A stretch of 58,021 bases of DNA, counting the filler, from Streblomastix strix (lineage: Eukaryota): the NCBI GenBank assembly GCA_008636045.1. It is 3 parts of 3 records of this genome, joined end to end, with 100 filler letters (N's around TTAATTAATTAA, not from the genome) between each part and the next. Parts side by side here need not be neighbours in the genome. Positions count along the whole stretch, not along the records: positions 19,384 to 38,656 come from SNRW01000527.1; 2 more parts are not named here. One strand, given 5' to 3'. The position numbers and the translations under genes are program-made. Below are positions 10,666 through 38,656 of this stretch, in pieces (the first letter of the stretch is position 1; each line of letters starts with the position of its first letter). The notes below the pieces were generated by a model that had not been told where the DNA came from, ran no database searches, and saw only the letters and a list, made by a program, of their open reading frames with translations.

Positions 10666-10713
10666 ATAATTAAGTAAGATAGATATTATTTTTATTTTTT
10701 ATCTTTGAAAAAT

Positions 10714-12781: not shown

Positions 12782-12832
12782 TTATAATCGCATAAAAAAC
12801 TAAAAAATAATAATATCTATCTTATTTTTTAT

Positions 12833-12976: not shown

Positions 12977-12999
12977 TTTGATTACGAAAAATAAACGAA

Positions 13000-13410
13000 T
13001 CATTCATCTATATTATCAAGAAGATCTTCAAATTATTTCTAATAATTATATCTAATTTCATCATATTCCATTAATGCGTTATGTTCTCTGTTATAACTAG
13101 TATTATTACAATTTATATAATGTAATTCATTTTTTATACCATCTTTAAGAATTCTTCTCATATCAATGAAAGGACTAATTTCAGCATGCAAATCAAGTTT
13201 GCCGCAAATCGGAGATTTGTTCATACCATCACTACTACGATTTGGTTTTCGATTGAAGTTAAAGTTATTAAAGAATTACTATTGATTAATAATTTCTTAT
13301 TGTTACTCTTTCTTTTTCATTAATTCGTCAATCCTTTTATTGTTTGCATCAATTTGAGTTAGATATTGCTATATGGTTTGACTTTTGTCTAGATTCTTCG
13401 AATATTCCAT
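13000..13410 (-). CDS. Hypothetical 136-aa protein (paralogue of 10063-10473)
   Basis: Direct homology; contains supplied ORF 13039-13224. Confidence 0.7.
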
Positions 13411-13437
13411 TTTAGACTAAAATAAAAAAATAATAAT

Positions 13438-16400: not shown

Positions 16401-18037
16401 CGGGACATATAGGCATTGGAACATCATGTAATAAGATTGATGGTTCATGAGTTGATAATTTACATTTTTCTACATGAGTGTTGAAATATTCATTAGCTCT
16501 CTTGTTAGTATTAGATAATATTGTAACATAATCATGGCAGTGAGGGCAAATAAGAACACCTGTCAATTTTTCAACATTAGATACATACATTACATGCTGT
16601 TCACTTCCATCACTAATGAGTAATAAGTCAAATGTCATTGATTCATTATTAAGATATCCATATGAATTAAATAGCCTATATTAACCTGTTTTTCCCTCTA
16701 ATTTTTCATGATAAATGTATATATTTACTACAAGGTTAAATGTATCAGTAAAATGAGTCATTTCTATCGAGATATTGAATCCCTTATAATCAATTAAATA
16801 TTTGTTAAGAGACTAGTCTTTCTTAGCCTTATCATAATATAAGTACTCAAACAGTTGATATTTACCTTTAATTCTGTAGTAATATGCGAATAATTGTTTA
16901 GCAAATGAAATTACTAAATGATGATCAACTTTTTTGTCAATTTCACTTCTAATTCTATAGGATAGTGCAATAAAGAAATATATTTAATAATCTGAATCTA
17001 AATAATGAACTGAATGCTATTTAACATGTTTATCAAGATATGGCATTCTTGCTCCAGTATCTATTAACTTATAAGTAGCGAACATTACGTTAAATATACC
17101 AACTATCAGATTTGTAGTGTCTTCATATGTCCGTTCCATCAATTCCCTTAACAGTTTAAACATATCTACTTTGAATTATTCTAGTGATTTCTTGTCACTT
17201 ACTGTTGATTATTTATGTTTGAAAGCATTATCTAGTGAAGGAATTCTGCATGAACATTTATAATTATTTCCATCAAGTTTTTCTTATATTTGAACTCCAA
17301 AATCAATTTGAACTATAAATTGAAGTCCTTAGTACGAATCATATACTTTATCCGCATTTTATGACAGTTGCTCTTACTGAGTTAGTTTATTAAAGTAATG
17401 AAGTTTATAAGTAATTTCATCATAAACAGCTTCAGCAATTGCTTCACTATTTTTGATTTTAACTACTCTTTTTATTACTTTAATTGCCTCCTCTTCAGTT
17501 TCAACATCACATAATTGTAATGCTATTTATGATAATTTATTTACCCTTTTTTAAATTTTCAATTGTTGAAATTGCATTTGAGATATCATCCTCATTTTCC
17601 ATCAATTATTTGTTAAGATTACGTTTATATTTAATGATTTTGTCTTTATGTATCCTATCAACATCAAACTGTTTAACTTTGAATTAATCGATAATAACAT
17701 ATACTCTTAATCTCTATTTTGCTTTATTAATTCTATCAGTATATATCCTATCATCATCGAATTCATTAATGAAAAGTTAATGTTAGCTATCTTACAACTT
17801 ATCTATGAAATCTGATTAATTGACATCATTTTCTTACATAAGTTATTGAAATGGTTATCTTAATTATTGCTCAAGAAATTGTTTCGCATTATCGAAGTTT
17901 GTTCTACTTCCTGTATAATTTAAATCCTTTAATTTAGTTACTAATTCAGTATATATTGAACCATATTTCTCTGATTCATTGATTGGTCTAACAATAGCCA
18001 TTAATTAAAAAATTTGTGGTTTTGTTAACTTAGACAT
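13438..18037 (-). pseudogene. Protein-primed family B DNA polymerase with endonuclease-VII-like domain (copy B)
   Basis: GWNSSRFD, KLINNASYG and ADTDS present; motif A decayed (DDNSLYL). +1 shift at ~17550 and TGA at 15121-15123. Four supplied ORFs share this frame. Confidence 0.9.
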
Positions 18038-18362
18038 TTATTAGGAAATAAAAAATAAATAATAAATATAGATAATATTACACATGTGATTTTTTGCATC
18101 GGACTATAAAAAAATAATAATATGCATTAGTTGTGGAGATTATGATTCCAATTATCAGAACAAAATTAGTGCTCTTCGTTGCGGATATTTAATTAAAATC
18201 GTCTATGACATTTGACTAGTGATTATGATTGATTTTAGCGTTGATGCTTATAGTCATTTGGCGTGGACGAATGAGGGCAAATTCATACGGAAAATCATGG
18301 CCTCCAAATTTTTTATACTCTATCTCTGACATTTCATTAAAATATAAATAAATCCAAAAGAT

Positions 18363-19383: not shown

Positions 19384-19669
19384 GATCAACTTATTTAGTG
19401 ATATCATCTGTAGGTATAAATTAAATAGCTACAAGTCGATGAAGACCCATAGTCTTTCCATTTATACTGACTTGCTTATATCCACTTTTCTCTGTATATA
19501 TTTTGTTAATGGCTTTATCGGCTTTTCATCTAATTGTCCATGGTTCTTATGTAGATATTTCATGAGTAGGGAAATCTGAGAGAGTTACAAATTGCTACAT
19601 TTATTAGTCCAATTTTTCATGAGTAGAGATATCTTATTACATTTATTAGTCTGGTACAAATTCTTACAT
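19384..19669 (-). pseudogene. HNH endonuclease 5' part (TGA and frameshift, cut by contig end)
   Basis: HEISTQEPWTIR*..., then GYKQVSINGKTMGLHRLVAIQFIPTDDITKQVD. Confidence 0.7.
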
Positions 19670-19721
19670 TTTATAGCCAGATAAAAAATTAGAAAAAAAA
19701 GAGAGGTGCGAAAAACCTTTT

Positions 19722-19886
19722 TTATTTTTGTCGAGGTGACTCCCTAAATTAACGATACCTAAAAAATAACACATTATTTTTGTCGAGGTGACTCCCTAAA
19801 TTAACGACACCTAAAAAATAACACATTATTTTTGTCGAGGTGACTCCCTAAATTAACGACACCTAAAAAATAACACATTATTTTTG
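19722..19886. repeat. Tandem repeat, 3 x 52 bp
   Basis: Unit TTATTTTTGTCGAGGTGACTCCCTAAATTAACGAYACCTAAAAAATAACACA; GTCGAGG at 19730, 19782 and 19834. A diverged inverted copy lies at ~22755-22815. Confidence 0.95.
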
Positions 19887-19928
19887 GGTCAGGCCTAAAA
19901 AGGGTACCACCGAAATTTCGGAGATAAA

Positions 19929-20945
19929 TCAATTCTATCGTTTTAACACATCGAAATTATTAAGTGATTTATTTACAATGATAAATTCATATTTCTATAG
20001 ACTGTTATATATAATTATAAATTCCTGCTCGTTTAATGCCGAGACATTGTTTTCCTCGTATATTTATTTCAAATCTTACTCGGCTATATTAGCACCTACA
20101 GCTATCACATGGCATAACACTCTTGCTGACCTGAACAGATATTACGGTCGTTAAGCACAGAAGAAGATGGTATTTTTACTATGTCGACTGTCACTAACTA
20201 AATGGGTTATCGATCTAGCTAGTTCACTAGTATATCTTTATATATCAGTATTTGATCCGATATCATCGAATATCATTAATGTGGAAAGTAATGCTGCGCT
20301 TGCAAATATAGGAATTTTTATAAACTCCTGTTCACCATCTTGCTCTATTATTTTTAGCTTCTTTGAATACTATACACCTTTAATAATAGATGGAAGATCG
20401 AATCGCATTAGCGTACTAGGCTAACTATATTCGTTTATTATTTTGATACACTCGGATTAGAATATATCAGATAGCCTATGTCGGTATTTTTTATCTGTAT
20501 CATCTCTTTTCTATTTGTTATTATCTACAATCGTTACTTTCATACGTGTAATATAATCCGAGTCATAATTAATACCTTGTTCTTTTAATTTCCAATAAGT
20601 ATATACTTCTTTAACCTTATATTTAATCTCATCAAATTAAGGAAGAAATGATTAAGCTTCTGCGTATGTTATATTGATTAATTTTATACCTCTATTATTT
20701 AAATTAATAGCCATTGTTTCATCAGGTCCAAAGTTAGAGAAGTATAATATATATGGGTGAATGTATCGCTAGTATAATACTATTAATTTAGCCATTAATG
20801 TCGTTTTACCACTTCCCACTGAACCCACGATATAATGATTGGCATTAATAAGAAAGATAGAATGAGGAGCTAATGGTCTTATCTTATACTCTTCTAATAG
20901 CGATTGATCATCGAATGATACTTAATTAATTTATTGGAGGGTCAT
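19929..20945 (-). CDS. A32/FtsK-HerA-type DNA packaging ATPase (338 aa)
   Basis: Intact frame; Walker A GSVGSGKT, Walker B LMIFDD, then SDSRH and FFCAQ as in A32-like ATPases. Confidence 0.88.
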
Positions 20946-21000
20946 TTATCATGAGCTAAACAATGATATTAGTATATTAGGGTCATTTTATAGGAATCAA

Positions 21001-21357
21001 ATGAATGTAATTAGTGTAATATAGCTAGTATTAAATTACTTATTTTATGGGATTAATTTTATTGTATCGATTATATCAGTTAGCGTACCTATCGAATATA
21101 TTAATCTAATCAAATAATTATGGGGTTATCTCGATATAATATTGGTTCCTATTAATATACTTGTATATATAATTTAATTTTGCTATCGTAGAAAGAAGAT
21201 GAAGAGTGCTATTGATAATAATAAAAAGTCAGCTATAGAATAGTATACTGTTGATTAATTGGAAGAGCTAATCAAATAGGCTGTTGCAGATAATGATATT
21301 GGACTAGCGAAATAATATCGATACCAACTATATCTTCTGTTGTTGAATTAAAATTGA
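21001..21357 (+). CDS. Small membrane protein (118 aa, two hydrophobic segments then RRKK)
   Basis: MNVISVIQLVLNYLFYGINFIVSIISV...LDIILVPINILVYIIQFCYRRKK; intact ATG..TGA. Confidence 0.6.
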
Positions 21358-21620
21358 CCCCAAGAGAAAAAGCTCGGGCTCAAAAAACGATAAAAGTCAA
21401 CACCGATAATTATCGGGGTAAGGTAAAAAGCCCTAACTCAAAAATAAGAGGTGTAATATTCCCTTTCTATTTTTATTCGATATAAATGATCTGAGAAGTA
21501 ATTAGCAGTATATCTTTAATGATTATAGCTATTAACAATCTACTAGGATGTATATTAACTCTATAATAGATTTCACTTGATAGAATAGAGATTAGCGATG
21601 AAGTAAGAAATTCAATTTAC

Positions 21621-22650
21621 TCATGATTAATTATGTAGGGCATAAGAATCACATACCTGAACACAAAAATCATTAGGTAAACTTACTTGACACAGTGTAT
21701 TGATTCTAACAAAACCATTAACATCGATAGTGCAGTCTATTGATATAGCATTAGTCCATACTATCGGGTTACTAGAAGTCTTAGTAATAAACATAACAGC
21801 ATTAAGAGCTATAGTAAATGGAGTCCCTGTAAATTATGGTTTAGCTTCATCCTTAAATATAGTGAATAATGTATAGGCTGATGATGATGAAGTATTAGGA
21901 TTAGAGTGTGTTACTTACATTGATATATAAGCCCTTCCATTATATGTTATAACTTATCCCCAAGCAAATGATTCATACATTCCACGCGTTAATTTTTATT
22001 TAATAGCCTATTCAACTGGTGGAGTAGGTAATGGTGCTACTAGCTAATTATTGAACTTGAGTTATGTACAATCAAAATCTATAATTAGCCCCTTATAATC
22101 ATAGGCGTCATCTTCTTATTTTTATATTTTGAATTATGATGAAGTGGATCCCATTTTCCATACTCCATCGGTATCAGTTGGATCAGTGTTACAGCCCGAT
22201 AGCACAAAGCTATCCCAGTTCGCTTTATTTTTCATTAGCCTAAGTCCTTAATTACGAATGTCATCATTCGGTTCGATAATCATTTGACCCATCGCATGTG
22301 GAAATTATTTAGGTAAAAAATCACCTATGTCTGCTATATCTCCATTAGCGAGTAGAAGCAAGTTTGCTGTGCCATCTTTTATCGAAAATTAATCGAATAT
22401 TTTTTTTACCAGATATTTCTTGTTAAGTATTTATGGTAACTAACACACTGGAATCAAATTTATATTCTTTAGCTCGAAAGTATTAACTAAAATAAGTTAG
22501 CAATTTAAGAATAAGTTTCCTGATATGATGGGTTAATTTATCTTGTAATTATTCAAATTCTTTTTACTTAATTTCATCTTACATTACTTTATTTATCTCA
22601 TCTTTCATTGCTTACATTTATTCTTCGGTTGGTAATTCTAAATCATCCAT
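21621..22650 (-). CDS. Fibre/spike-like protein (one homopolymer frameshift at ~22400-22407)
   Basis: VTINTQQEISGKKIF..IKDGTANLLLLANG resembles phage tail-fibre motifs; the C-terminus looks beta-rich. Confidence 0.5.
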
Positions 22651-22881
22651 TTATATTGATGGCAAAAAATAATAACCGTAGATTAACAGATATAGATCAA
22701 TTAATATGTCAGAGCCTAAAATAAATCAATTAGTGTACTCTGTAGAAACTGACCGACCCCAAATTAATGTGTTATTTTTTAGGTATCATTAATTTTAGGG
22801 GTCAACTCGACAAATCTATTTTTAAAAGAGAGGTGCAACTTGCCTTTTTATTATTTTTTCACAATAAGTCAATTTTTTTCC

Positions 22882-23670
22882 TCAAAACTCGTTAGGGTCA
22901 ATATCAATTGCTGGTACATCAGATAGCCGAACTAGATCTTTATTAATCCTATATAATTTCTCTACACTATTCCAGAGTACATTATCCTGTGTATTAATAG
23001 ACACATTTTTTATCAGAACATCTATAACTCTAACTATCTCCTTCTTCTTATATTATTTACTTAAGCAAGAGTGTGTTGCAATAATTGATTCCTCTAACAC
23101 TATTTCTATATCATCTTCTTTTTCTTAGGTAACTATCGACCAGAATTTAATGAAATTATCAGAGGATAATATAAAGTCATCACTCCTATTTCTATGAGTA
23201 ACTGTTCTCCAAATACAATCAACAACGAACTTCATTATCTTTAAATTTGGATGAGATAAATAAGCGTTCAAATGATTATCTGTGACATTAGTCGGAATAG
23301 TTTATGGTATGATAATTGGTTAAGGTAATATCTCAATTGATGGTTATGATAATTTATCCAATACTTCTTGGGGTGTAATTTGAGCACTAGTTCTATCGGC
23401 ATCAGTGTACTTATTTTTGTTGAATTATCTGGGTTAATTTCTAGGTGATATAATTGGTTCCGCTTACTACGTTTCATCTTATCCAGTCGATTAGATACTT
23501 CTTGATGTAATAGTTTAATTAGCCAAAGACTGTTGTTAATTCTCTAAAACTTTAGCAATTAAGTTATCCACATACTATAATCTCTGTTGGCTAGCGGTAT
23601 CAGTTAGGTCCTTCATTTATTTCTTACTTTTAGACAATCTCAATTAATTACGTTCTACTCCACGTATCAT
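22882..23670 (-). CDS. Hypothetical viral protein (262 aa)
   Basis: Continuous code-6 ORF MIRGVERNQL...IDIDPNEF*. Confidence 0.65.
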
Positions 23671-23702
23671 TTTAATTAAAACAGAAATTTCTAGATTATT
23701 AA

Positions 23703-24266
23703 ATGGATAAGTCGTAAGCGTTAAAATTTATGATGGAAAATGATACTAATATTGAGTACTTTGATGGTGGATATTTTATTCGAGATAAGAAACAAATCAA
23801 GTGTTTTGAAAATGGAAAACGAGGACTTAAATTAGTGACACAAGCTTAACAAAATAAGCTAATGATGTAGGCTAAAGGAAATAATTAGCACAAGAAATAG
23901 CCAACTAAAATGTTTGAATCTGACTCTGATGAAAGTGATAATTCTGTTGACGCTATTGAAGAAGAGTAACCTAAGCCAGTATAAAGGGTTAAAAGAAAAG
24001 TATAAAACAAACCGTAAATCAAATACGTTAATCCGCAACTTGATTTTGAAGAGCTAATATCTTTGCGAACTGAAAATAAATATACAAAATAATAACACGC
24101 AGATATGGTTAAATAAAACGAGAAATATAAAAATAAACTGAAAGCGTTAAAATAACCTAAGCCTAAATAACAACCTAAGTAAATAGAGTAAGAAGAAGAA
24201 TAGGAGGAAGAGGAAAAAAATGATTAATGTGTTCCTTAATAATATAACTACTATGATGTATATTGA
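23703..24266 (+). CDS. Hypothetical charged/coiled-coil viral protein (187 aa)
   Basis: Continuous ORF MDKSQALKFMMEND...YDVY* with acidic and K/Q-rich tracts. Confidence 0.65.
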
Positions 24267-24506
24267 TAAAAAAGTAGCCCGCCCAAATTTGATCGGGGTA
24301 CATATTCATATCGTTATTTTTTCATGTAGGTATTGACTTCGTTAATAGTATAAAAATTAACTGATTAAAATTCATGATAAAATAGTGCGCTACGATCGTA
24401 ACGGGTATACTTATTAGAATTAACGAAAAAAAATAGCACACATATTGATTAATATAACCAGTAAAAAATGCTAACAGACAAAACTGGCTGGGTAAAAATA
24501 AACACT

Positions 24507-24944
24507 TCAAATTGATGCCAATGTATAATAATTACAGAATAGTTTGTTATCATCCTCAGTAACAAATGTGTTATATATCTATTTTTCTTCATCCTATGCC
24601 TCAGTTAATATATACTATTTCAGTTTGTTAATTTACTGAGCTTAAGCAATATTTAGCTATTTATACTAGTTATATTAATCAATATGTGTGTGATTATTTT
24701 AAGTATAAATTTTATTAAAGTATTGCTCTTACTCTGCTTACTTATTAAAAAATTACAATTTAATTTAATAGATATCGAATTATTATTTTAGCTTTTTTAG
24801 CTCTTACATTAACGGGTTCACTAATTGCGGGGGTTATAATAACTCCTTCAATTATTATATTATTTATTATATCATATCTTCCTGTATATTATTTTTGGAT
24901 AATTGTTTAATTAATTACTTCAGTTATATTATTAGTGATTCCAT
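24507..24944 (-). CDS. Hypothetical Q-rich coiled-coil protein (145 aa)
   Basis: Continuous ORF MESLIIQLKQL...YTLASI* with TAAATG start. Confidence 0.5.
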
Positions 24945-25007
24945 TTATAATAAATAAAAATAGCTAATTTTATTCGCTAATTCCCATAAAAATATTCACA
25001 CACTAAT

Positions 25008-25199
25008 TCACTATATCATATTTTTAGAATGATGTATGTAATCAATTGGCTTTGGCTATATATGTGTCGGCTTTATAATAACAGCATCACTTCTAATTTA
25101 TGTTGAGGATAGAAATTTATTAAGTAATTTTGGGACGTAACCCGTGGCTTATTATACACCACTTAATATTTTAGAGCCAAAATTCTTGGTGCTAATCAT
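25008..25199 (-). CDS. 63-aa paralogue of the amphipathic peptide gene
   Basis: MISTKNFGSKILSGV...LLNKFL shares KNFGSK.L.GV and NKFL with 25349-25552. Confidence 0.5.
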
Positions 25200-25348
25200 T
25201 TATGTGCAAAAATAATGTCATAAATTTCATGTAATAATTGATGAGATTAATTTACACACTATTTCAGAAATATAGGAAAGGCAAGTTGCACCTCTGTTTA
25301 TTTTTGGGCTGGCTCAAATTTGAGCTGGTATCAATCATTTATTATATA

Positions 25349-25552
25349 TCATCGATTTAAAAACTTATTTGCCATACCTGCTGCTCCACCAACTCCTCTC
25401 GCAATCATACCCGCAGTTGGATTAATTGCGCCTATTGTTGGTGCAACTGCTCCCATAACTTTATGAAGAACTGGCGCTACCCATTTAGCTGCAGATGTAA
25501 CACCATGCAATACTTTTGAACCGAAATTCTTTAATGAACTCCAAAATCCCAT
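25349..25552 (-). CDS. 67-aa amphipathic, putative membrane-penetration protein (adenovirus pVI-like N-terminus)
   Basis: MGFWSSLKNFGSKVLHGV..; cationic, G/A-rich, no acidic residues; ends in TGA. Confidence 0.7.
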   Translation of the reverse strand: MGFWSSLKNFGSKVLHGVTSAAKWVAPVLHKVMGAVAPTIGAINPTAGMIARGVGGAAGMANKFLNR

Positions 25553-25585
25553 TTATTGATTTAAAAATAATTTTCATAAAACGAA

Positions 25586-26158
25586 TCATTCATAATTTCC
25601 ATTCCTTAATTTGTCGACATATACTTTCAATTATTTATGTGTAATATCATAACATGAAACATATTAATAAGCGTAAGCGTCATTTTTCACATTAATGTGA
25701 AGCTTTCTAAATTTTAGCCCATTGTGGAAATATACATTATATTCTTAATCAAAACTATATCCCTCTAAGTCATACCCATTATATAATATAAGCGGTTAAC
25801 TATTTTCTGGTAGTTCGTCAAAATATTCGTATTATATTTTTCCATGATTAGTTCTGTTCTTTGAGTTCTCAATATTTGTTGTCCATCGGAGATTTTCTAT
25901 TCTATTATCATTTTTGATACGATTAATGTGATCTACTTGTGGTAAATTATTAGGATTCGGAATAAATTAAATAGCAATAACTCTATGATGTTTATATTTT
26001 TTTCCATTCAGATATATTTAATTATATCCTGTGGAATTATCAAACGTTATTTTTGGAATAAATTAATCCGCAATTCTTCTTATCGTATGTGGTTCTTCAG
26101 TTAATATTTCATAGTTATTATTAACAGTTAATATTTACCATATATTTAACTCTACCAT
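25586..26158 (-). CDS. HNH endonuclease, intact (190 aa)
   Basis: HHRVIAIQFIPNPNNLPQVDHINRIKNDNRIENLRWTTNIEN. Confidence 0.9.
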
Positions 26159-26225
26159 TTATTCCCCAGATAAAAAAATGAAGAAAATATAAAACTGATT
26201 TTTAAAAAGTTATTTCGTTTATTAA

Positions 26226-28184
26226 ATGAGTTTTGGAGCACAGGATTACCTTGCAAGGCTATCGAAAGCATCACATTCGGATTATGTTTCTTCATATTCG
26301 GCTCTTAATGAAGTAATGCGGACGTTGACTATCGAACCATAATCATTCCATCTATCAAAATAATAATTCGAAGACTAACCTGTTAATACATTGTTTTCTG
26401 GTGGTACAAGATAGACACGAGCTCCTCTTGGTGCTAGGGGTTCAGCCACCTGTTGCTGTGTTTAAACATGTTAGGTTAACTGGACAATTACTATATCCGC
26501 TAACACATTGGGTATCCAGCTCAATTAAGTTAATCAAACTAAAGGAGGAAATACTGACATTGAATTTGCCCTATAATTAACTAACTTTAATGGAACAAAG
26601 ACAGCAGCTGCACCATTGCCTGCAGATAGATTGATTGCTCAAAACACATAAAAATATAATAGCAATGAAGTACTCAAATTTTGGATCGGCTTCTCAACAG
26701 CTTGTGGACCTTTCTAATAAGTTGCTATATGTAAATAAAATACAAAATTATGGGAAACTTCCATTTACGCTCGCGAATAAGCTATCATCTGTTCTAATTC
26801 TTTATCTGACCTAACAGTTAATAATTCCGTTACTGTCTCACTACTTGAAAGTATAACTTAAGGGAAACGTCATTGTGGAGTATTTATTGATATACCATGT
26901 AGTAAAATTAATGCCAGTACTGCTGACTACTATTATAAAATACCAGATCCCATTACTTTTAGTGATGTATTGGATCTCAATTAACTGAACCCGATATTTA
27001 ACGAGTTTCCTGTACTAATTAGAAATTATGCCAGTCTTTTTCTATAACTGTGGATGACTGATTTCCTATAAGATTTAAAAATAGTATGGTTAAATAAAAC
27101 AATCCCTCTATTCGATCAACATCTTGCTTATACAATGATTCCACCAGAGAAACCAGATATAATTATCCTAATGACTAATGACGCAGATATTGAATATAAA
27201 TAATACTCTGTACGAATGATTAATTGTAGAGATCTAGAAGCAGATTCAACTGACCCAAAAAATAGTATATAATAAATAGACACCGCTTACTTTGAATATT
27301 TATCGATCCATAACCTTTGCTTTACCATGGAAAATGAATAGGCAATTATCGATATGATTAGGGCACAGAAAGTAATACATTTCCCTACCTAAGTTATTAA
27401 ATCACAATCATTTAATTACACCATGAACAATTTTGAGCCATCCAGTGGGTAAATATAAAGTATAATGTCGTTTGCTAATATCAAAGCTATGTTCATGACG
27501 TTTGCGATGCCGTAATATCCCACATGGTTCTTTCCCATGTTACTCCACAACATAGACTTAATAATTGATTAACGACATGCTGTTCCTTTCCCTTACGAAG
27601 CACATACTCAAGCTACAAATGGCTCAATGTTTTAGTGTTTTGTTGATTAAGATGTTATATCACCATCTAGCGATTTGTATCATTCTCTTACCTTCGAAAA
27701 CATCAACATAAATGATAAGAGATATAGTTATGGGAAAAATGATGGTGCTACTAATGATATAGATAATGTGTTCTATAAGACTACACTATTTGTTGGTTCT
27801 AAGGCTGTTAAAACATACTATCCTAATAAATATATGCTCGCATGGAAATTAGCTACTGATGATTCATTTATGCGCGGATTTAATAGTACTAGAATTGGTG
27901 CGAGAACAGATATATAATTAATGTTGCATACACAGATTATAACTGGAATTGTTGATAACCATAAAATTAATGATGATACTATTCACCCTGAGAATTAAAA
28001 TACATTAGCTGGGTTTATAGGTACAAGAAGTTATCCCATGAGTTGGTAAGTAGGTTAGACCCCCATGTTTCATTATCTGTGTGACGCGGTCATTAGAATC
28101 ATGTTTGATGATAACCCCGAACCCTAGGTGTTAAATCTGGAGGTTATCGGTGAGATTAGCGGCAGTATGATTACTGCGGGATGA
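26226..28184 (+). CDS. Putative major capsid protein (652 aa, double jelly-roll inferred)
   Basis: Long intact code-6 ORF containing supplied ORF 27675-27917. The capsid call rests on size, composition and location near the packaging ATPase, not on a diagnostic motif. Confidence 0.65.
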
Positions 28185-28331
28185 TCTTACTATTTTTCCA
28201 TCGTTAATGAAGATTGATTAATTTCCCAAAAAAGTCAACCCTGATAATTATATCGTTAATTCAAAAAATAATAAAAAGGCAAGTTGCACCTCTCTTTTAA
28301 AATTAGATTTGTCCAATTACACTAAAATTAA

Positions 28332-28958
28332 TCATATATAATATTTGTGAAGAGGTGACCATTTAAATTTAGATTCTTCTATTTAAAATATATATTCATT
28401 GAAACATTATTTGTTTTCATCAATCATACTCCTTAATCTATTTTCATTGAACTCATTACGTTATTTTTCATTTGTTTCTAGAATGTCATCATATATTTTT
28501 CTGAACTCTTTATATTAATATGATGTTAGTATTAACATTTATTTACCACAATAAGGTATTAGATCTCCTCTATCATAACTTAAGTTACCTATTACATCAA
28601 AATTAAGTGAATATTCATAGTATGGGCAATGTGGCCAAGATTACATTTATGTTGCGTAAAATTAATTATTAAAAGAAAGACTAGAGGTAAAATTATGACC
28701 ATATTCTATTTCAAACATACATTCATCATAACATTATTTATTTTTATAAATCATTCTCGTTAATCTATTTTCATTGAACTCATTACGTTATTTTTCACTT
28801 GTTTCAAGAATGTCATCATATATTTTTTTGAACTCTTCATATTAATTAACAGCTAATATTAATTTATTATCTGATAATAATAAGTCTCCTATATCGTAAC
28901 TTAATCTAGCTACCATATTACTATCTAATGTATATTCATTGTATGAACAATATGACAT
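28332..28958 (-). CDS. 208-aa protein made of two ~100-aa repeats
   Basis: YEEFKKIYDDILETSEKQRNEFNENRL and YKEFRKIYDDILETNEKQRNEFNENRL in one frame; the DNA duplication is visible at ~28433-28520 and ~28760-28847. Confidence 0.65.
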
Positions 28959-29150
28959 TTATATGGCTGATAAAAAAAATAGAAAAAATGTTAGGGGGAA
29001 AAATAACCCCGTTGACTTATTTTTAGAATGCCAACACACTTTCAATTACAAATCTTACTCTCACAAGCATATTTTATAGCTATATCGAATATCTTCTTAA
29101 TCAGCTCCTTCCAATTAATTCCTAATTATTCGAGCTCGTAAATTATAGTT

Positions 29151-32100
29151 TCATTCAGCGGAATCATTTATAGGAGGTTAAAGATCTACATAATTACTAG
29201 CTGATAATTAATAGATAAACGGTGCTGATAATTAACTATTAGGCAAAATAATACCTTTAGTGTGTACGCCTGTCAGAGCATTTTTTGTTTAAGTTAATTT
29301 TGCCATTACCCCATCTTTTTATCCCAGTCGCATATTTTCACACTTCATTATATTTCCACCGATACAATCAATTATATTCTACTTAGTTATAATATTCTAC
29401 TTCTGATTAACTCCCTTCAATTTAATTATTTAGTCAGCAACCGTGTTAATATAATAATTCTTAGGCGAGACAGCTATCATTATATCACCTTCCTTTTCGA
29501 TTGATAGCCCTAATAATTTCTTTTGTTCTTTTAAGTTGCTAGTTGTAGGAAAATAATACTTATAATTATCATGGTAAAATTTCTAATCGGTTATTATATA
29601 GTTAAATCCTTAGCTAGTTGGTTAATTAATATCCCCTGCTACTGCAAAGTACATCGAGTCCGTATCACCTTCAATAAAATGAAACCTATTTCTATCCAAA
29701 CATTTATAAAGGAAATTATATATAAAATTAAGATACCAATACTTAGCGTTATCTAGTGTAAAATAAGCTTCTTATAGCGGAGTCATACATTTACATCTAT
29801 CTGTGTTTAACTACACGGCATAAAGGTCATCGTTTAACTATCGCTCACTCATAAAATTACCTGTCAAGTGAGTTATTAAAGTATCAGCCTTTGACTTTAG
29901 CTTCACATTACTAAATTTCTCGATATTCATCCCATCAGATCCATAACTAGCGTTCATAACTATCTTACAGAATTAGCTCAACCCTTTGTTATTAGCTTCA
30001 ATAGCTTATATTCTCCTGTTCATAAAAGTGTTAACAAATCCGTTAAATCTATCGTGCTTAGTAAAAAGAATGAGCTAATTTATATCATCTATAACAAAAT
30101 GACACGTGTCAATTAAAAACTATAAATAATAACTAGAGAATGACATGAATTGATCGTGAGTAGATAACAACTGAGTTAGCTTCCTCTCATCTTTATCTAC
30201 TTTTATCCCATTATCTTTCATAAAATTATAGGTATATTTACCTATTACTTGTTCGCTAGTAACATATGATATATTCCTAAGAATAAGCGGAAAATTAATA
30301 CAATCATTTATATCTTCAATGTGCCCCTTAATTGTTGCGATGAATAATTACCCTGCTATTGTATATCTTACTGACGAATTAATAATATTCATACACCTCT
30401 CTTTTTATATATCATTTTCCACGTTAATTACTTCTTTTACTGTACCAGCCATATACATTTTACCACCAGTATATGGACATAGTTAATTATGTTAACTACT
30501 CATTACACTCGGATATAATGAATTAAAATCTAGCCCTATTATATTAGTGACTATATTATCTGTCTCTATTACTTTCACTTTACCGTCATATTATATAGTA
30601 ACAACATTATCTGTCTCGATTACTTTTACTTAACCATCATATTGTAATCTCTTAATTTTTGTCTGACCACGTATATTTACCCGATTCATTACATTTGATA
30701 GCCCACCAGTTATTCCATTCCTTAGCGTTTAATATACTTGCTAATTGTTAATTATTGTAGGTAAATTATACTTGCTACAGAATTTCTTTAACTAGATAAG
30801 TAATTTCATCTCTTACTCATTTCTATTTCCTTTCGTTGAATTACAATATAAACAACACTATCTAACATTATCTTTAGTATGAGGTATTAAATTATCGATG
30901 CGATCTAATGTAGGTCTATTTTTAAACGTAAATTGTTCGTGACAAATAAAACAAGGCTTTCTCATTAGCTATTGAAAATATTAATAATCATCAACACTTA
31001 CGTTATTAGCCACATCTCTTTTCGCTAGTAAGTCTTGTTATTTATATCCCAACACTTTAATGTTCCAATATTATGGAGTAAGGTAAAATGGTGGATTAAA
31101 TGTTGGGTAGTTATAATTTCCATCTATACTAAAATCATTATAAGCTATTGAATATTTTATAGCGTTAGCGCAACTAGCCATTGATATATGTTATAACATA
31201 TCAACCTTGTATTCGAAGAACAGGTTAATTAATATTTATATAGGTGCAATCATAATCTAAGTATCTAGTATATTATAATGTCTTAGATAATCCCATCTGT
31301 TATTAAATTATTTATAATCCTTGAGATATAATAAGTAATCTTGATCGGAAATACTAGTATTTTTCAACGTGTTATTGTAATCTGATTATTAAAATGGGCT
31401 CTTTTTAGATAATTGCTCATCATAATCATCTCCCATTAGATCATAGGGAAATAACCCCTTAGACTATTATTAATCCGAAAAATTCGCTACAAATTAGTCC
31501 AGTGCCATTGGGGGTGCGACATATAAAAAAGCGTCTAGAAATTTGAGCGATATACTCATATTATTATGCGATACAATTAGCTACTTACACATTTGTGGTG
31601 ACCCTATATAATTAGTTATTTTCCATTAGCTCGATAACATATATGGAAAGAGTAATGACATATCAAATTTAGCAGAGTTATATCCCAGAACAGGAACATC
31701 AATTGAATAAGGTATATTTTCATCATCGTAATTATTATCTTTCTTTATTTATACTGCTTCTGCAAATAGTTATTTTATCCATTGGTTAATGAAATCTGTT
31801 TACCTAATATCATAATAAATAGATTTAATACCTTTGGATGAATGGATGGTTGATGCCACACTTAGTGGTATGAGTTAGCTTATTATCTTACTTTCTTTGC
31901 CAAATTTTGTATCAACTTTGTGCTCATAAGTTTCAAAATCATAAGTAATAAAATATTACGTCGGTTTAAATTCATTTTATCTACCCTAAGTAAGTAAATA
32001 CCGATAAGTCTTATTTTACATTATGTGGGGAACAAATGGTCTTTGTTAATCATCAAGATAGACTTATTTCACTATTTTCCCCTTACATTTCTTAATATGT

Positions 32101-33449
32101 CTATCCATAGTCTCTTTAGTATGTTAATCTTATTTAAAGCAGTGATTCTTGCAAATAGGGCAGAATAATAATCCAGTTAGACGTTATTTATCTGTTACTA
32201 GTAATGTATGAATATTTATACCATTTATTTCCTCTGATTAGATAAGTAGCAAATTAAGCTCATCATCTCCTTCGATTGGAAATGATTAAGATAAGAAATA
32301 ATGAAAAGACTTATCATCCTACTAGTATGAAAAGAGATTAACTGATAATTTTAGATGATCATGGATTTTCTATATATCTGTTGCGTAATTGAATCCCTCA
32401 AATGTCTTAGGGTTAAAGTCCTTGTAAAATAAGACGCCAATTTCTTTCATTTTATGAAGAACTTGACTGTCACTATATCTTTTCTCCTTAGTATCTTTTA
32501 GCAAATGTCTAGCTATTGCTTCTAGTACACAAGTATTAGGATAAGGTGAATTGATAAATCTGAGACATTAACGTTTTTTTGACAAATGTATTTTTAAACT
32601 CGGAATAGACTTACCACTGATTGGAAGGAGATAGGTCATTGCGCAGATAGAATAAACAGCTATATATTTCTATTTTGTATCGATTAGGGTCTTTTCCTAA
32701 ACAGATATTATAACTGACTAGATATATTCCTTGTATAGTTCAATATCTTGTTGAGTTCTTATTAATAATGGGGCTCTTCTTTCTGTCATTGATTCTCTCG
32801 GGATAATATAACCGTATGTTATTTTTATATCATTATTCTTATCTCTATCTTTTCGCTCGTAAATGAAGCCAAAGTCGATTGCTAATTTATAGACGCTATG
32901 AGCCATATTAATGTGAATTTGATCAATGAAATTATAGATATCTAATACGCTAGTTATATTATTGCTATAGTGAACTGTGGTTATTGGACTGCGTTAGATG
33001 TGATTTTAATCGGAGAAATTAGATTTGGCGTCAAGGAGAATTCTAGTGAAATCATCTAGATCGTGAGGTTGAGTTAATAATAATACTCCTTCGTTTATTA
33101 TTTTAAGTAGCTTACGTTCTTTTGTAGACTCTATCTGTTGTTTGATTTCTAATAGTTACGGTTAAAATATATACTGTAATTGCTACTCTAATTATTATTG
33201 TATCTCGTTAAAGTTCTCTTGATGAGTTGGAGGTTAACGTACATAGAATTAGTTATCTAATCTAGCGTCTAAGTCAATCATAAATTATCTGAGGACATTA
33301 TAGTTATTTCGTGAGCCTTTTGCTGGAAAGTTATTTTTATCAAGTGCACGTTTTAGTTGTTACTTTAACTATTCACGTGTCTTTTTTTCTTATAGTTGGG
33401 GTGATATAATTCGCAATAAATTTAGCAGCTCCTTTTTAGTTAATACCAT
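29151..33449 (-). CDS. Intact protein-primed PolB with internal endonuclease-VII-like domain (1432 aa)
   Basis: Read through with no TGA or shift: CPIC Zn motif, YDFET, GYNSAKFD, KGLFPY, YNILD, CFIC..LDRIDN..H..NV..CCLYCN, DFNSLYP, KIVMNASYG, GDTDS. An in-frame upstream ATG exists at 33581. Confidence 0.93.
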
Positions 33450-33636
33450 TTTATCTTACGTATAAAAAATGATTATTTCATGAAGAGTTGATGAGGATAT
33501 AATAAAGGTTAATATCTAGTCGAATTATTTTTGTAATTTTATGAAGAGATAGAGATTACGGATAGTGTTTTTATTAGCCATTTATCGTTAGAAATCTATT
33601 TTTTAGTCGAATAGGGGAACTGATTTATTATACCCA

Positions 33637-34079
33637 AGTAGTTAAGGATCTTAGAAACTTGTACTATTGAAAGAAAAAATATGTGTTCAAATTAAGGCGA
33701 CCAGATAGGTCCAACGGGTATAAATATTCAAAACACTTAAATTATGATGGAAAATAGCGACAGTAATCCATATCAATTCATTTGTGGATTAGCCCGTGGG
33801 GTAATGAGTATAAGTAATTATTCCAAAAAGTTCTGATAGATAGTGTATTATTAGTGAAATAAAGTGAAAATAAGATAAAAATAAGAAAAAACTTGTATTT
33901 ATTTAGTCGGTAACGTATTGAGTAGTACTTTATCGGTGAAAAAAGATAATTTAAAGAGCTATTTTCCATCATAATTTAAGTGTTTTGAATATTTATACCC
34001 GTTGGACCTATCTGATCGCCTTAATTTGAACACATATTTTTTCTTTCAATAGAACAAGTTTCTCAGATCCCTAACTACT
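33637..34079. mobile_element. 443-bp element bounded by 122-bp inverted repeats with AGTAGT...ACTACT ends
   Basis: 33637-33758 is the reverse complement of 33958-34079 with 4 mismatches; no TSD seen. Confidence 0.65.
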
Positions 34080-34282
34080 GCCATTAACCATAAATGTCAT
34101 AAATTTGAATGATGGAGAAATCGATTGAATTACCTTAAATGAAAAACAAGACAGATAAGACATGACAAGTCAGAAAAATATAAGACACCAAAAGTTGCAG
34201 GACAGGTTGACAGATGGACAGATGAATCAAAAATAAAAATTTTTTTTCTCAAACTATTTCTATATTTTTATCTTTTTGGAAA

Positions 34283-36395
34283 ATGGCATAACTGGCAAAT
34301 AACTTTGAAGATAGTAAACTCATTGAATCAATTATGAGCGAATCAACTGAAAAGAATATTAAATGTGTGACACTTGAGAAAGGATCAAAAAGACAATATA
34401 ATTGTAAGTCAAAAACATATGAGAAAACTAAAGCGTTAATTGATCAGATGATTAATGAATAGACTAATGAACAGACAAATGAACAGACAGATGAATAGAT
34501 AAATGATTAAGAATAAACTAAAGAGTAATCCGTTCCCTAAAGTGATTATGATGTATTCTCTGAAGTATTTTCTGAATGTTTCACTAAAGTTAATGAAATA
34601 ATATATAATCCAAAACTATCAAAAAGAGAATTGATGGTGCAATCATTGATTTATATGAATATCGAAAATTCGCTGATCCTAAATTAAAAAATAAATAATT
34701 AACAGGATATGTTGTTTATTTGAGTTTGCGAAAAGATGATAATTTATGTATTATTGATTTTGATATTGATCATGCAGGCAAATTGAATGAGGAAGAGAAA
34801 GAGAAAATACGATAAAATATAATCAATAATATGCTTCCAAAAAATGTTGGTTTAGTCGTAACTGCATGAGGTGGAATACATGCTTATTGCAATAGGAATG
34901 GATATAAATTAACTACAAACAGAAATGAGAAAGTGAGAGTATATGATGATAGTCATGAAATTGATATCTTTGCATAGATGTACACACATAAAGATGGTGA
35001 ACTAGTAGCGAATCGAGTTGTACTACCAAATAGCAAAGTAAGAATCATGGAAAAAGGAGTCTAGAAAAAAGAGATACTTCATTATAAAAAACTTAATGAT
35101 TGGTCTAATGCTCATCATCAAGCATCTTTGCATAATATTCTTGGTCATTGGAATGTTGATCTATCTGCAAAAGATGATGATATTTCGAACACCGTTTCAT
35201 AAGATTGTACATATGAAGCAATGACAATTGAAATAGTTGATGCATGTATATAAAGTTTGAAACGATTAACTATTCACAATGATACAAACACATTAGCAAG
35301 AGAGATTAGTTTGCTTCCAGTATTCATGGGACTAAACGGATTAGAATAAACGAAAGATAAATAATATAAAGAAGATGCCTACATAACTGTTTATAGAAAT
35401 AATATTCTGACACCTAATGCAAATGAACATTGGAGCGATAGAAAAGGAAGATATTCCAGTAGAGCTAATGCATAGATACTAACGAAAATTATTAAACTTC
35501 ATAACAAAGAATACTATGAAACAACTTTTAAACATTTGCACAAAAAGAGATTACAAGATAAACATAAATTAAAGCCTGAAATAAAATTGGAAATGATTGA
35601 AAAATAAGGATCTGACATCAATGATCCATTCATATTTGGAAACATAAGTGAAAAAGCAACAAGAGGAGAATATAAAGAAGAAGCAGATATTGCGACTGAT
35701 TTAACTAAGGTAATTAGATACTATGCTGGTGAATCTGAATTAGTGTTAATAATCAAAGAATATGATGCTTAGTAAGAGACTAACGTAATACGCTATAAAA
35801 CAAAGACAAACGCATATGAATAAATGCACATAATTAGATTAAGGGATGATGGTAAAAACATATAACAGTATAAGATATTTTCGAAAAATATAGTAGATAA
35901 TATGTTGTTGAAGGAGTTAGATTCAATTCATATAATCCGAATGTATTCAATGTCTTTCAAGGATATAAGTATGAAAAATTTGAATAAGTTGAAGAATCAA
36001 AGATAAATATGTTCATTAATGATCTGACGTATGGAACAATAGCAGGAGGAAACTAAGAGGTTTTTGAATATATTCTTAATTGGATTGCATTCATTGCTTA
36101 AATTGCAGGATAAAAAACTAGAACAGCTATCATTTTTCAAGGATTATAGAGAATTAGTAAAAATAGATTCACAGATGTTATTGCAGAAATTTTTTCACGT
36201 TATAGCCTACCAAATATATCAATAATTGAAGAATTTACAGGAATATTCAATTTAGTTGTTGAGAATGTAGTGTTTGCTGTTCTGAATGAAATGATGAATT
36301 ATAACGAACCCAAGAAGGGTACTGCCTAGATAATGAAGACGATAGTTACTGATTAAACAATAAGAATTAATAAGAAAAATTAACCAAGAAGACGA
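34283..36395 (+). pseudogene. Primase-polymerase (AEP-type) / SF3-like helicase, 3'-truncated
   Basis: IIDFDID, TA*GGIHAY (TGA 34867), NRVVLP; then FNVFQG, YILNWIA, eroded Walker A QGLQRISKN, VLNE, RINKKNQP. Frameshifts at ~34612 and ~35856. Confidence 0.8.
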
Positions 36396-37974
36396 GCTGA
36401 AACAGATAATTAGACTTGGGGATTGGGGCACTTCACTAGACCTCTCCTCCGCATTTCACCACCTAATAGTCCTAACAGAATCACAACCATACCTAGCATT
36501 CGAGTTCCAGAACAACCACTACACATATAGAGCTATGCCATTTGGAACCAAACACTCATCAATATACTTCGCAACAGCAATGGAGCAAATAATGCAACAA
36601 ATAAGAATGAAATCCGAGATTAGAATAATCAATTACGTCGACGACATCTATCTCCTTCACCAAAACTAGGAGTATCTGAAGAACATGACTTAGAGAGTAA
36701 TAGACACACTGAAATACTTCGGATTCACAATAAACACAGAAAAGAGCGAGACAGAACCAAATCAAATAGTAATATTTCTAGGATGGGAATGGAATCTAGC
36801 CAATGCAACAGTCAAGACGAAACCGAAGAAGCGATTATTTCTTCTACACGATCTATACAATACGAGAAGTTGGATAAAGACAGGAACAGAGACAACAGTA
36901 AAATAAACAGCTAAGTTAATAGGAAAACTAAACTATCTAAGACTGTAATTTTAAGAAGCCTCACTCTTCCTGAACATAATGGACCATCAGAAAGCATAAG
37001 CAGCAAGACTGAGAGGATGAAATACAACGATGATAATGAACAAGACTGCAATTCCAGATATAAATTGATGGATAGCGAAACTCAGAGCGAACATTCCAGG
37101 ACAATTAATATAGATATCACCATAAATGAAAATGACAACAGATGCAGCACCTAGTAGATGGGGTTCTAATCAAAAGAAGGAATCGGAAATGACTGCAATA
37201 TCTCATGGAACTTGGAATAAAAGATAAGCGAAGTTAATAAGTAACAGCAGAGAAGCTAAAGTTATAACTTAAAGCTTGCGAAGTTTCGCCAAAATCTTAA
37301 AGAATTCGCGAATTCAATCCCTAGCGATTAGAAGTGATAATAGTACAGCAGTTTTCGACATTTATAAATGGAGAACATCAATATCATTAATAAAGGAAAT
37401 TAAACATGTACACTAAACAATAGAAAAGCTAGGAATTTAGATCCAGATTACTCACTTCCCAGGAGTTAAAACCGAAATGGCAGACGCACTAAGTAGATTA
37501 TCAAGAGCAGGAGACTATTAACTAAAGGAGAAAATTTTTCGACAGACATGTCTTCAGATGAACTTGAAACCAACAACAGATTTATTCTCACAACACTTCA
37601 ATTATCTACTGCCAAGATTCATGTCAACAATAGGAGGACACAGAGAAATAGCAATCGACGCTCTCAATCAAACATGGAAGAAGGAACTATCATGGATTCA
37701 TCCTCCTATCCCTCTCCTTCCAGCAGTTCTGAAGAAGATCAGAGAAGAGCAGATCGAGACAATGATAATAGCTCCACTATGGCCAGGCCAGATATGGTAC
37801 ACAGAACTGGTAAACGAGAATGCTCGATCCCTTATGCTTGATTGGAGCAACGAATTTCTGGAACCAGGAATATCGTTAATTAAGAAGAATTTGAAACTCT
37901 TTCCAGGCAAGATATGTTGTTTCCTGATGGACCGAAGCCCAGAAAAGCGAGAAGATTCACAAGAAATATTTTGA
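36391..37974 (+). pseudogene. DIRS RT / RNase H / adenine-methyltransferase-like polyprotein
   Basis: LDLSSAFHHL, YRAMPFG, YVDD; TDAA, RSDNSTAV, ADALSR; DLFS, WIHPP, APLWPGQIWY. TGA at 37018 and 37066 at probable Trp positions. Confidence 0.9.
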
Positions 37975-38006
37975 GAATACTAAACGTTTCCAAGGCAGCA
38001 ATAGAC

Positions 38007-38656
38007 ATGATTTTATATGGATAAAGATACAATACTTAAAGGAGATACTACTATGCAATGGAAAAACTTAAGAAATGGATCCAAATCAATCACTACACAA
38101 TACTTGATTTATTAACAATGAAGCCACACATCATTATAACAGAGGTACTAGCTTAATTCACTTTAGTAAACACTTCAGCAAGCTCAGCACTTCAGTTTCT
38201 TAATGGACTCTCATCAATGCTCTCACTCACGTTCGAAATAGATTTAAAGAATAACCACATGCTCCAATTTACTAAGAAAGCAATCTCAGCACACATAGTC
38301 GTCAAACCAAAATATGAAGACAAATGGAACGTGGTAATACTATTTGATTATTGGAGAGGAAAAGGATCGAACCGAAATTTGACAAATGTTGAACTGTAGA
38401 CTAAACTCACTTCACTCCTTATGACTATCTATTCAATGAGACCAGCCGAAATCGAAGGAATATCACTAAGACACACAGTAATTTGCGAACAAACTGACAA
38501 AGTAGATTTACGACAACAACCGAAAACAAAGTCTGGACTTCACTCACACAAACTTCCAAAGACTAGAGATCGAACTGTATGTCCAAGAGCAACATTTTTT
38601 GATTGGCTGAAAAGAATTGATAACAAACATGGTCGATCCATCAGAGATAATAAGTA
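38007..38656 (+). CDS. DIRS tyrosine recombinase (partial)
   Basis: PKY..W, KLTSLL..SMRPAEI, PKTK, VCPR; joins supplied ORFs 38217 and 38421 through TAG=Gln. Confidence 0.8.

What the first reader, a model, noticed from the sequence alone, without database searches (positions are those of the whole stretch)
19384..33600. Near-intact endogenous Polinton-like virus written in the host's TAR=Gln code
Seen: ATPase, putative capsid, HNH and a 1432-aa pPolB are uninterrupted only if TAA/TAG = Gln, and all end in TGA; polymerase catalytic motifs are intact. No integrase or cysteine protease is visible in the captured part. Inference: a recently active virus lineage specialised on a non-canonical-code host, which would restrict its host range.
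Basis: partly seen in the sequence, partly recalled or inferred. Interest (0 to 1): 0.7.

Follow-up and report, generated by a model that had tools for sequence, protein, structure and literature searches.

The report
Aging Polinton virus in recoded protist
This is the right-hand 14.7 kb of a Polinton-type DNA virus, likely integrated in the genome of the termite-gut protist Streblomastix strix, whose genes read only if TAA and TAG mean glutamine; such viruses are already reported from this host, but this copy has broken genes and a predicted capsid protein of a second, likely uncatalogued family.

Summary
On a 19,273-bp contig (19384-38656), ATPase, HNH, a 652-aa ORF and a 1432-aa pPolB are open only with TAA/TAG=Gln, and homologues confirm Gln independently. 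The 652-aa model matches double-jelly-roll capsids (Foldseek E 6e-6; weak model). Its close relatives are all Streblomastix strix proteins. Bellas et al. 2023 already reported S. strix endogenous viruses in this code, so the headline is known. Corrections: the element runs on to a Polinton terminus at 34079, and its left end is only the contig edge. 'Near-intact' is overstated: a fibre-like gene is frameshifted, a second HNH has an in-frame TGA, and pPolB has private changes at invariant sites. One is Trp to TAG, a nonsense change that this code hides. New: the capsid is only about 18-22% identical to Metamonada-type capsids and was not found in the readable part of the published catalogue. 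All 67 related metagenome pPolB loci use the standard code, so recoding happened within the family. Activity today is not shown.

The parts
19384..19669 (-). Second HNH endonuclease gene, broken by an in-frame TGA and cut off by the contig end
   Evidence: stop after residue 47; 42% identical to the intact HNH over 77 aa, E 1e-16, with the stop read as X
19697..19886 (.). Dispersed intergenic motif (19697-19729; copies near 21442, 22824, 25286, 28284) followed by three 52-bp tandem repeats (inverted copy at 22755-22814); likely regulatory
   Evidence: D4, D6, I15, I16; 5 matches against 0.10 expected, one of the five (30391) inside pPolB
19929..20945 (-). Predicted genome-packaging ATPase, 338 aa
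   Evidence: Walker A at 41, Walker B at 224, RH at 254; PHROG terminase-type ATPase E 1.8e-7; E 2e-8 to 7e-6 to ATPases of standard-code relatives, one inside the TIR-bounded element of L013
21199..21357 (+). Possible small ORF of 52 aa, unknown
   Evidence: no family match; may not be a gene
21621..22470 (-). Fibre- or spike-like gene (inferred from the N-terminal motif, which I recall from fibres), frameshifted near the T8 run at 22400-22407
   Evidence: The top sibling models are 279-290 aa and 76-84% identical. Their residues 2-24 match one frame and the rest another. Several S. strix homologues carry locus tags next to capsid homologues on contigs of the same length.
22882..23670 (-). 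262-aa ORF, unknown
   Evidence: no family; annotated on a 19,273-bp NCBI contig
23700..24266 (+). 187-aa charged ORF, unknown
24507..24944 (-). 145-aa Gln-rich ORF, unknown
25008..25199 (-). 63-aa likely degenerate paralogue of the 67-aa gene
   Evidence: siblings of the 67-aa protein hit it at 44-45%, E 2e-4 to 8e-4
25349..25552 (-). 67-aa amphipathic protein, predicted membrane-penetration protein
   Evidence: Hydrophobic moment 0.4-0.5 over residues 1-36; weak look-alikes (E 0.06-1.0) in 8 standard-code loci, between capsid and ATPase genes in L013; cluster of 5; no useful PDB match
25586..26158 (-). HNH endonuclease, 190 aa
   Evidence: PF13392 E 1.2e-9; PHROG HNH E 5e-20
26226..28184 (+). 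[quoted passage not shown]
   Evidence: AlphaFold2 with 68 sequences, pLDDT 52; Foldseek best hits are mavirus, Sputnik, PBCV-1 and adenovirus capsids, E 6e-6 and up; 188 clusters, all 120 listed from S. strix
28332..28958 (-). 208-aa ORF with an internal duplication, unknown
   Evidence: repeat D2, 159 nt, 86%
29151..33449 (-). Protein-primed DNA polymerase B, 1432 aa: inferred terminal-protein and vOTU-like region (Cys307 and a downstream His aligned with relatives), exonuclease, HNH/EndoVII insert (about 809-893), polymerase; a 17-aa duplication before motif A; private W1110Q (TAG) and P1055L
   Evidence: (EndoVII E 2e-14; polymerase E 4e-11)
33622..34079 (.). Right terminal region: two 122-bp inverted arms (33637-33758, 33958-34079; 118 of 122 identical), each starting AGTAGT; the element ends ACTACT at 34079
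   Evidence: same end motif plus a 6-bp target-site duplication in the complete relative in L013; other flanks join this motif in run contigs
34283..38656 (+). Flank, not part of the virus: broken primase-helicase-like element (34283-36400) and DIRS-like retroelement (RT; RNase H and tyrosine recombinase by my reading; 36535-38656)
   Evidence: DUF5906 E 2.5e-6 and RVT_1 E 3.7e-14; PHROG primase E 3e-8

Best explanation
This is the right-hand 14.7 kb of one likely integrated, decaying copy of a multi-copy Polinton-type virus of a TAR=Gln protist, likely Streblomastix strix, whose genes use TAA/TAG for glutamine. Shown: the ORFs and their code, the AGTAGT/ACTACT end, the lesions, and a large family of sibling genes. 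Inferred from Polinton biology and the complete relative in L013: an active copy is a linear DNA with terminal repeats; pPolB primes on its own terminal-protein domain and copies the genome; the ATPase fills a double-jelly-roll capsid; the 67-aa peptide helps entry; and an integrase encoded beyond the contig edge, or supplied by another element, inserts copies with a 6-bp duplication. The lineage came from standard-code ancestors and replicated in this host lineage long enough for its Gln codons to reach the share that base composition predicts. That makes a one-way barrier: standard-code viruses entering this host suffer only read-through at gene ends, while these genes would stop within 5-39 codons in a standard-code cell. 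This copy is probably no longer autonomous.
For: Host: all 120 listed capsid homologues and all 102 named hits to the fibre-like gene are S. strix; the capsid protein itself sits on a 19,273-bp NCBI contig in a 29-member cluster whose 14 other listed members are S. strix. Code. TAR makes up 73-90% of Gln codons in the four genes, against 65-74% expected from T/(T+C); 80 such codons in pPolB are too many to date from after insertion (inference). Fold; VIA aligns about 300 residues to Sputnik (Z 4.8, rmsd 5.2) and mavirus (Z 4.1, rmsd 5.2) capsids. Terminus; run contigs join the motif to another flank (X1, X3) and to capsid-gene position 27123 (X1). Ancestry: 67 of 67 metagenome pPolB loci have 0-4 stops in the standard code over 314-1448 aligned codons; the 12 S. 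strix pPolB rows are not rejected as one clade (AU p 0.59). Decay; Trp in 51 of 51 and Pro in 50 of 51 relatives are changed here, and sibling contigs in 4 of 4 runs carry the other letter at both places. Past selection: 51 of 159 private capsid changes in 10 close copies fall on conserved columns against 45% expected, p 0.001.
Against: The capsid model is weak (pLDDT 52; TM-scores about 0.2; VIA Z under 8 is within the background range). No integrase, protease or minor capsid gene was found in the captured part. No listed run contig bridges the 34079 junction, and the best run holds only 0.44 of the stretch's words, so a mosaic assembly of copies is possible and the T8 frameshift may be an assembly error. 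This copy is better kept than 'decaying' suggests: 2 of 13 private capsid changes hit conserved columns, 8 of 13 classed differences are synonymous, and it departs at 21 of 224 conserved pPolB columns against 10-20% for four other S. strix rows. Terminal-protein and vOTU roles rest on motif alignment only. The free tree split the S. strix pPolBs into two groups.
Confidence: 0.82

Rival explanations
1. One reading: a functionally intact, recently active virus. The lesions are errors of amplification or of assembling many similar copies, or lie in dispensable genes, and the element can still make virions.
For: Four core ORFs and the catalytic motifs are whole. At 3% neutral divergence pPolB would stay free of TGA in only about 15% of cases. 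Private capsid changes avoid conserved columns. The frameshift lies at a homopolymer. Bellas et al. show that many stops in such elements are assembly artefacts.
Against: Three independent kinds of damage; changes at Trp 51/51 and Pro 50/51 where siblings keep the conserved letter; close capsid copies differ by 3-16%.
Confidence: 0.12
2. The contig is a patchwork of several copies or subfamilies (capsid module from one, polymerase from another), so no single element has this gene order.
For: Best run holds 0.44 of the words; many joints skip or invert parts in other copies; the nearest long S. strix pPolB model is only 50% identical while the capsid has 92% neighbours.
Against: Run contigs 85-99% alike cover all 30 bins in 4 of 4 runs; the same intergenic motif recurs along the element; capsid, fibre-like and pPolB homologues carry neighbouring locus tags on other S. 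strix contigs.
Confidence: 0.05
3. A free virus of another TAR=Gln microbe in the termite gut, co-assembled with host DNA.
For: The runs that hold it are labelled termite gut metagenome in 3 of 4 cases.
Against: 188 clusters of divergent capsid copies, only 15 of 120 listed at 640-670 aa; the terminus abuts broken mobile elements written in the same code.
Confidence: 0.01

Closest known systems
Metamonada-group Maverick-Polinton EVEs of Streblomastix strix and Trichomonas vaginalis (MCP cluster 40; Bellas et al. 2023, PMC10120064)
   Same: Same inferred host, same TAA/TAG=Gln code in the viral genes, double-jelly-roll capsid found by structure prediction, many copies (820 capsid hits in one cluster in their Table S4).
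   Different: Their S. strix capsids are about 550-560 aa and about 32% identical to T. vaginalis. This one is 652 aa and only 18% (profile, probability 73, E 3e-5) to 22% (best pair, E 7e-4) like 540-565-aa capsids that I match to that group by eye. Six ids and four motifs of this family were not found in the readable supplement.
Polintons/Mavericks (class Polintoviricetes) with pPolB2 (Jeong et al., 10.1101/2023.08.22.554363; Krupovic et al., 10.1101/2024.03.18.585575)
   Same: pPolB with a long N-terminal region and an HNH insert, packaging ATPase, capsid, terminal repeats; a relative shows a 6-bp target-site duplication.
   Different: Integrase, protease and minor capsid are not in the captured part. 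The HNH insert, described as exclusive to oomycete and nematode pPolB2, is present in all 52 aligned pPolBs here; that it is the same insertion was not tested.
Complete standard-code element in locus L013 (9215-23519)
   Same: Related pPolB (34%), ATPase (E 8e-7), small amphipathic ORF beside the capsid gene, AGTAGT/ACTACT ends.
   Different: Standard code, 542-aa capsid of the other family, terminal integrase-like ORF, 14.3 kb.

Membership tests
Polinton/Maverick (Polintoviricetes) | [quoted passage not shown] | tested here: met
   Motifs; PHROG polymerase E 4e-11; many relatives carry PF03175; no Pfam hit for this copy itself
Polinton/Maverick (Polintoviricetes) | rve-type integrase | tested here: inconclusive
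   Not in the captured 14.7 kb, but the left end is cut; relatives carry a terminal integrase-like ORF (16 frames; rve E 0.093 in 1 of 10)
Polinton/Maverick (Polintoviricetes) | [quoted passage not shown] | tested here: met
   All PDB rows shown are double-jelly-roll capsids, best E 6e-6; model pLDDT 52; VIA Z 4.8, inconclusive on its own
Polinton/Maverick (Polintoviricetes) | A32/FtsK-like packaging ATPase | tested here: met
   Motifs, PHROG E 1.8e-7, homology to the ATPase inside the L013 element; Pfam Pox_A32 not hit
Polinton/Maverick (Polintoviricetes) | Terminal inverted repeats and 5-8 bp target-site duplication | tested here: inconclusive
   One end found with the family's end motif; the other end is missing, so pairing and duplication cannot be checked
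Polinton/Maverick (Polintoviricetes) | [quoted passage not shown] | tested here: inconclusive
Metamonada group, MCP cluster 40 of Bellas et al. | Capsid clusters at 25% identity over 30% length with T. vaginalis-like capsids | tested here: inconclusive
   18-22% to stand-ins matched to the group by eye, below the threshold; the published members were not available as sequences and their S. strix hit table is cut
Metamonada group, MCP cluster 40 of Bellas et al. | S. strix members use TAA/TAG=Gln | tested here: met
   paper passage
Virophages (Virophaviricetes) | Virophage-type capsid by sequence | tested here: inconclusive
   Mavirus and Sputnik are the best fold matches at 8-10% identity, but the capsid profile finds no capsid in the PDB by sequence
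Virophages (Virophaviricetes) | Dependence on a giant virus | not testable with these tools
   Needs infection experiments

The most novel reading that the evidence does not exclude
S. strix hosts a second, uncatalogued lineage of Polinton-type viruses, defined by a 650-aa capsid with hundreds of copies and 21-31% relatives in metagenomes. It has been locked into TAR=Gln oxymonads by a one-way code ratchet, and some copies still make infectious particles. It would link the unplaced Metamonada viruses to environmental groups and give a natural test of the genetic code as a viral host-range barrier.
Probability: 0.2. Interest if true: 0.6.

Novelty: new member of a known kind. Interest (0 to 1): 0.33.

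Why it matters
The main point, Polinton-type viruses in S. strix using the host's code, is in print. Three smaller things are added. (1) A likely uncatalogued capsid family in a group that a 2026 preprint still calls unplaceable for lack of genomes. (2) Standard-code relatives all round the pPolB, so the recoding can be studied as an event within one virus family. (3) A caution: in one-stop codes, changes such as Trp to TAG read as Gln, so open frames overstate how intact or recent an element is (about half as many substitutions make a stop).

Tried and rejected
The single-sequence fold was useless (pLDDT 30). Pfam finds no family for the capsid or any of 68 aligned members, DUF4106 included, nor for the 540-aa capsids; a PDB sequence search with the profile found no capsid. 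Four scans of viral contigs (capsid alignment, pPolB alignment, two distant capsids) found no relative; back-translated patterns may miss TAR-coded genes. None of the 67 pPolB loci carries a clear capsid of this family (best E 7e-4). No RNA holder listed. No language-model look-alike search of the capsid is available. The 443-bp AGTAGT..ACTACT unit as an independent mini-element was rejected: its flanks differ (TACCCA and GCCATT) and other copies share the 15 bp to its left. Two independent recodings are not supported (AU p 0.59). Tree rows: 15 proteins under 380 aligned residues were dropped, and 129 rows were thinned to 73 at 70% identity. In one search the pPolB positions are one too high and one host control frame was wrong and was ignored. 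Of 101 stop-to-stop frames of 80 aa or more in 19384-34079, 55 were scanned; those left out mostly overlap the core genes. Literature searches; only PMC10120064 holds both Streblomastix and polinton. Three papers were not held. No support in print was found for the AGTAGT end motif; I recall it for Polintons and showed it here in L013.
Full report
Setting. The window is three contigs of about 19.27 kb joined by N spacers. The finding lies on the middle one, 19384-38656, and begins at its first base, so the left limit is an assembly edge. The capsid ORF is on record on a 19,273-bp NCBI contig, in a 29-member cluster whose 14 other listed members are Streblomastix strix proteins, and all 120 listed of 188 homologous clusters are S. 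strix. The host is therefore inferred to be this oxymonad, which uses TAA/TAG for Gln (PMC10120064).

Observation. The four ORFs exist as described. The code was tested without assuming it. With TAR masked, standard-code relatives are 5.3-fold enriched for Gln at 69 TAR columns, and one TAA falls on a Gln found in 52 of 52 relatives. Only the capsid and pPolB frames are longer than chance gives in this code: 0 of 200 shuffles reach 652 codons, 144 of 200 reach 338. TAR makes up 73-90% of Gln codons in the four genes, close to the 65-74% that base composition predicts. I infer that the lineage replicated in a TAR=Gln host for a long time, since drift after insertion could not supply 80 TAR codons in pPolB.

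Capsid. A single-sequence fold failed. With 68 sequences the model reached pLDDT 52 and is rich in beta strands. Foldseek ranks mavirus, Sputnik, PBCV-1, adenovirus and ASFV capsids first (best E 6e-6; 39 matches at E 0.001 or better), and capsids lead the viral library too. TM-scores are only about 0.2 and VIA Z values (4.8 for Sputnik over 303 residues, rmsd 5.2) are in the background range, so the call rests on the agreement of the hits. A profile search of 1.84 billion representatives gave 213 hits, 150 listed; nine that I looked up are proteins of 462-696 aa without an organism name, on contigs of up to 22 kb, 21-31% identical. I did not see their DNA, so their code is unknown.

Polymerase and ancestry. 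pPolB keeps Exo I-III and Pol A-C, has an HNH/EndoVII insert (E 2e-14) seen in all 52 aligned rows, and a Cys and a His that align with relatives where Krupovic et al. place a vOTU protease (inferred). Its relatives are 27-50% identical; the best S. strix model of 787 aa or more is 50%. All 67 loci from the metagenome scan read in the standard code (0-4 stops). In a 73-row tree the window groups with S. strix rows among standard-code and unnamed metagenomic rows; the free tree splits the 12 S. strix rows, but one clade is not rejected (p 0.59). The tree is unrooted, so 'derived from standard-code ancestors' rests on the spread of standard-code relatives and on the standard code being ancestral.

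The end of the element. Two 122-bp inverted arms at 33637-33758 and 33958-34079 each begin AGTAGT. A complete standard-code relative in L013 has terminal repeats that begin AGTAGT, end ACTACT and sit in a 6-bp duplication, CATATG, with pPolB beside one end as here. Run contigs join this motif to another flank and to position 27123 of a capsid gene (short side 37 letters), as expected of insertion ends; other copies keep 33622 onward upstream of pPolB. So the element likely ends at 34079 and 14,696 bp are captured. Beyond lie a broken primase-helicase-like element and a DIRS-like retroelement. No listed contig bridges the junction. L013 and other loci carry a terminal ORF with a DDE-like pattern (16 frames; rve E 0.093 in 1 of 10); its profile finds nothing in the window.

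How intact. Against 'near-intact': the fibre-like gene is split between two frames near a T8 run at 22400-22407; a second HNH gene at the left edge has an in-frame TGA; pPolB has Gln (TAG) where 51 of 51 relatives have Trp and Leu where 50 of 51 have Pro, and sibling contigs in all four runs read the other letter at both places; a 17-aa duplication before motif A is unique among 52 rows. The Trp change would be a stop in the standard code. About 1.5-2.1% of weighted substitutions give TGA, against 3.2-3.9% giving any of three stops (my own weights). For 'recently active': 8 of 13 differences that I classed (picked from 40 shown of about 3,300) are synonymous; 2 of 13 private capsid residues lie on conserved columns, which make up 45%; across 10 close copies it is 51 of 159 (p 0.001), and 8 of 74 for shared variants. 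Close copies are 84-97% identical. The family thus spread under purifying selection and its copies have since begun to decay; this one is among the better kept (21 of 224 conserved pPolB columns changed, against 10-20% in four other S. strix rows). The best run holds 0.44 of the words, so assembly artefacts are not excluded.

Mechanism. Inferred from Polinton biology: protein-primed replication of a linear genome from the terminal repeats, packaging by the ATPase into a double-jelly-roll capsid, entry helped by the 67-aa amphipathic peptide (likeness to adenovirus protein VI is recalled; membrane-active accessory genes of adintoviruses are described), and insertion by an integrase that is not captured. 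The code barrier is one-way: the first TAR falls at codon 5, 8, 39 and 20 of ATPase, HNH, capsid and pPolB. It would not bar other TAR=Gln hosts. No test of host range was possible.

Known versus new. Bellas et al. 2023 (PMC10120064; I read parts 1-3 of 7, passages, and searched the supplements) state that S. strix EVEs use the host's table and suggest a long association; they list 820 capsid hits in one cluster. The six S. strix capsid ids visible in their tables are not among my 120 listed hits, and six ids and four motifs of this family are absent from the stored spreadsheet. That file is cut, cells stop at 400 characters, and the S. strix rows of Table S5 are missing, so overlap is not excluded. 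Against 540-565-aa capsids from my loci, which resemble their printed S. strix capsid by eye, this family scores 18% by profile (probability 73, E 3e-5) and 22% at best pairwise: remote kin, probably a separate cluster. A 2026 preprint (10.64898/2026.06.19.733378; passages) leaves Metamonada elements ungrouped. Jeong et al. (passages) describe pPolB2 in Metamonada and the HNH insert. PMC13524828 (passages) reports a code-6 giant-virus genome. Also seen as passages: 10.1101/2024.03.18.585575, PMC8502044, PMC12220804, PMC12451622 and 10.64898/2026.10.13.758929 (abstract too). Two earlier notes of this scan describe code-6 viruses in other genomes (unchecked).

Verdict. Real, and mostly known. 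The additions are a probably uncatalogued capsid family, a mapped terminus, standard-code relatives and evidence that the code hides decay. Interest 0.33.

Noticed in passing
window 5136-10669 (+) and 12829-18350 (-), first contig: Two inverted, about 89% identical, frameshifted copies of a second pPolB type (36% to the finding's over the polymerase core), tail to tail; they fall in another S. strix group in the tree.
   Followed up: partly
L013:9215-23519; L021 similar: Complete 14.3-kb standard-code Polinton-type element with AGTAGT ends and a CATATG duplication, beside eukaryotic genes (adenylate kinase, DENN, PPPDE); its capsid, ATPase and integrase-like ORFs escape Pfam at E 0.001.
   Followed up: partly
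window 30770-31025 (pPolB residues about 809-893): The HNH/EndoVII insert, described as exclusive to oomycete and nematode pPolB2, is present in all 52 aligned pPolBs; weak PacI match, E 0.56.
   Followed up: partly
window 27123 joined to 33639 in run X1: A contig joins the terminal motif to the middle of a capsid gene, suggesting insertion of one element into another copy.
   Followed up: no
window 34283-38656: Primase-helicase-like element broken by a frameshift and interrupted by a DIRS-like retroelement whose ORFs use TAR for only 33-50% of Gln codons.
   Followed up: partly
window 49601-52258 (+), third contig: GlmU-like bifunctional gene (NTP transferase plus hexapeptide repeats) in the host code, possibly of bacterial origin.
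   Followed up: no
window 42754-47479 and 56137-56339: Duplicated Armadillo-repeat genes and a 203-nt inverted repeat in the third contig.
   Followed up: no
L028 and L027: AT-rich standard-code elements with pPolB, A32 ATPase, ORFs of 650-680 aa that do not match either capsid profile tested on them, and, in L028, dispersed 100-nt repeats.
   Followed up: no
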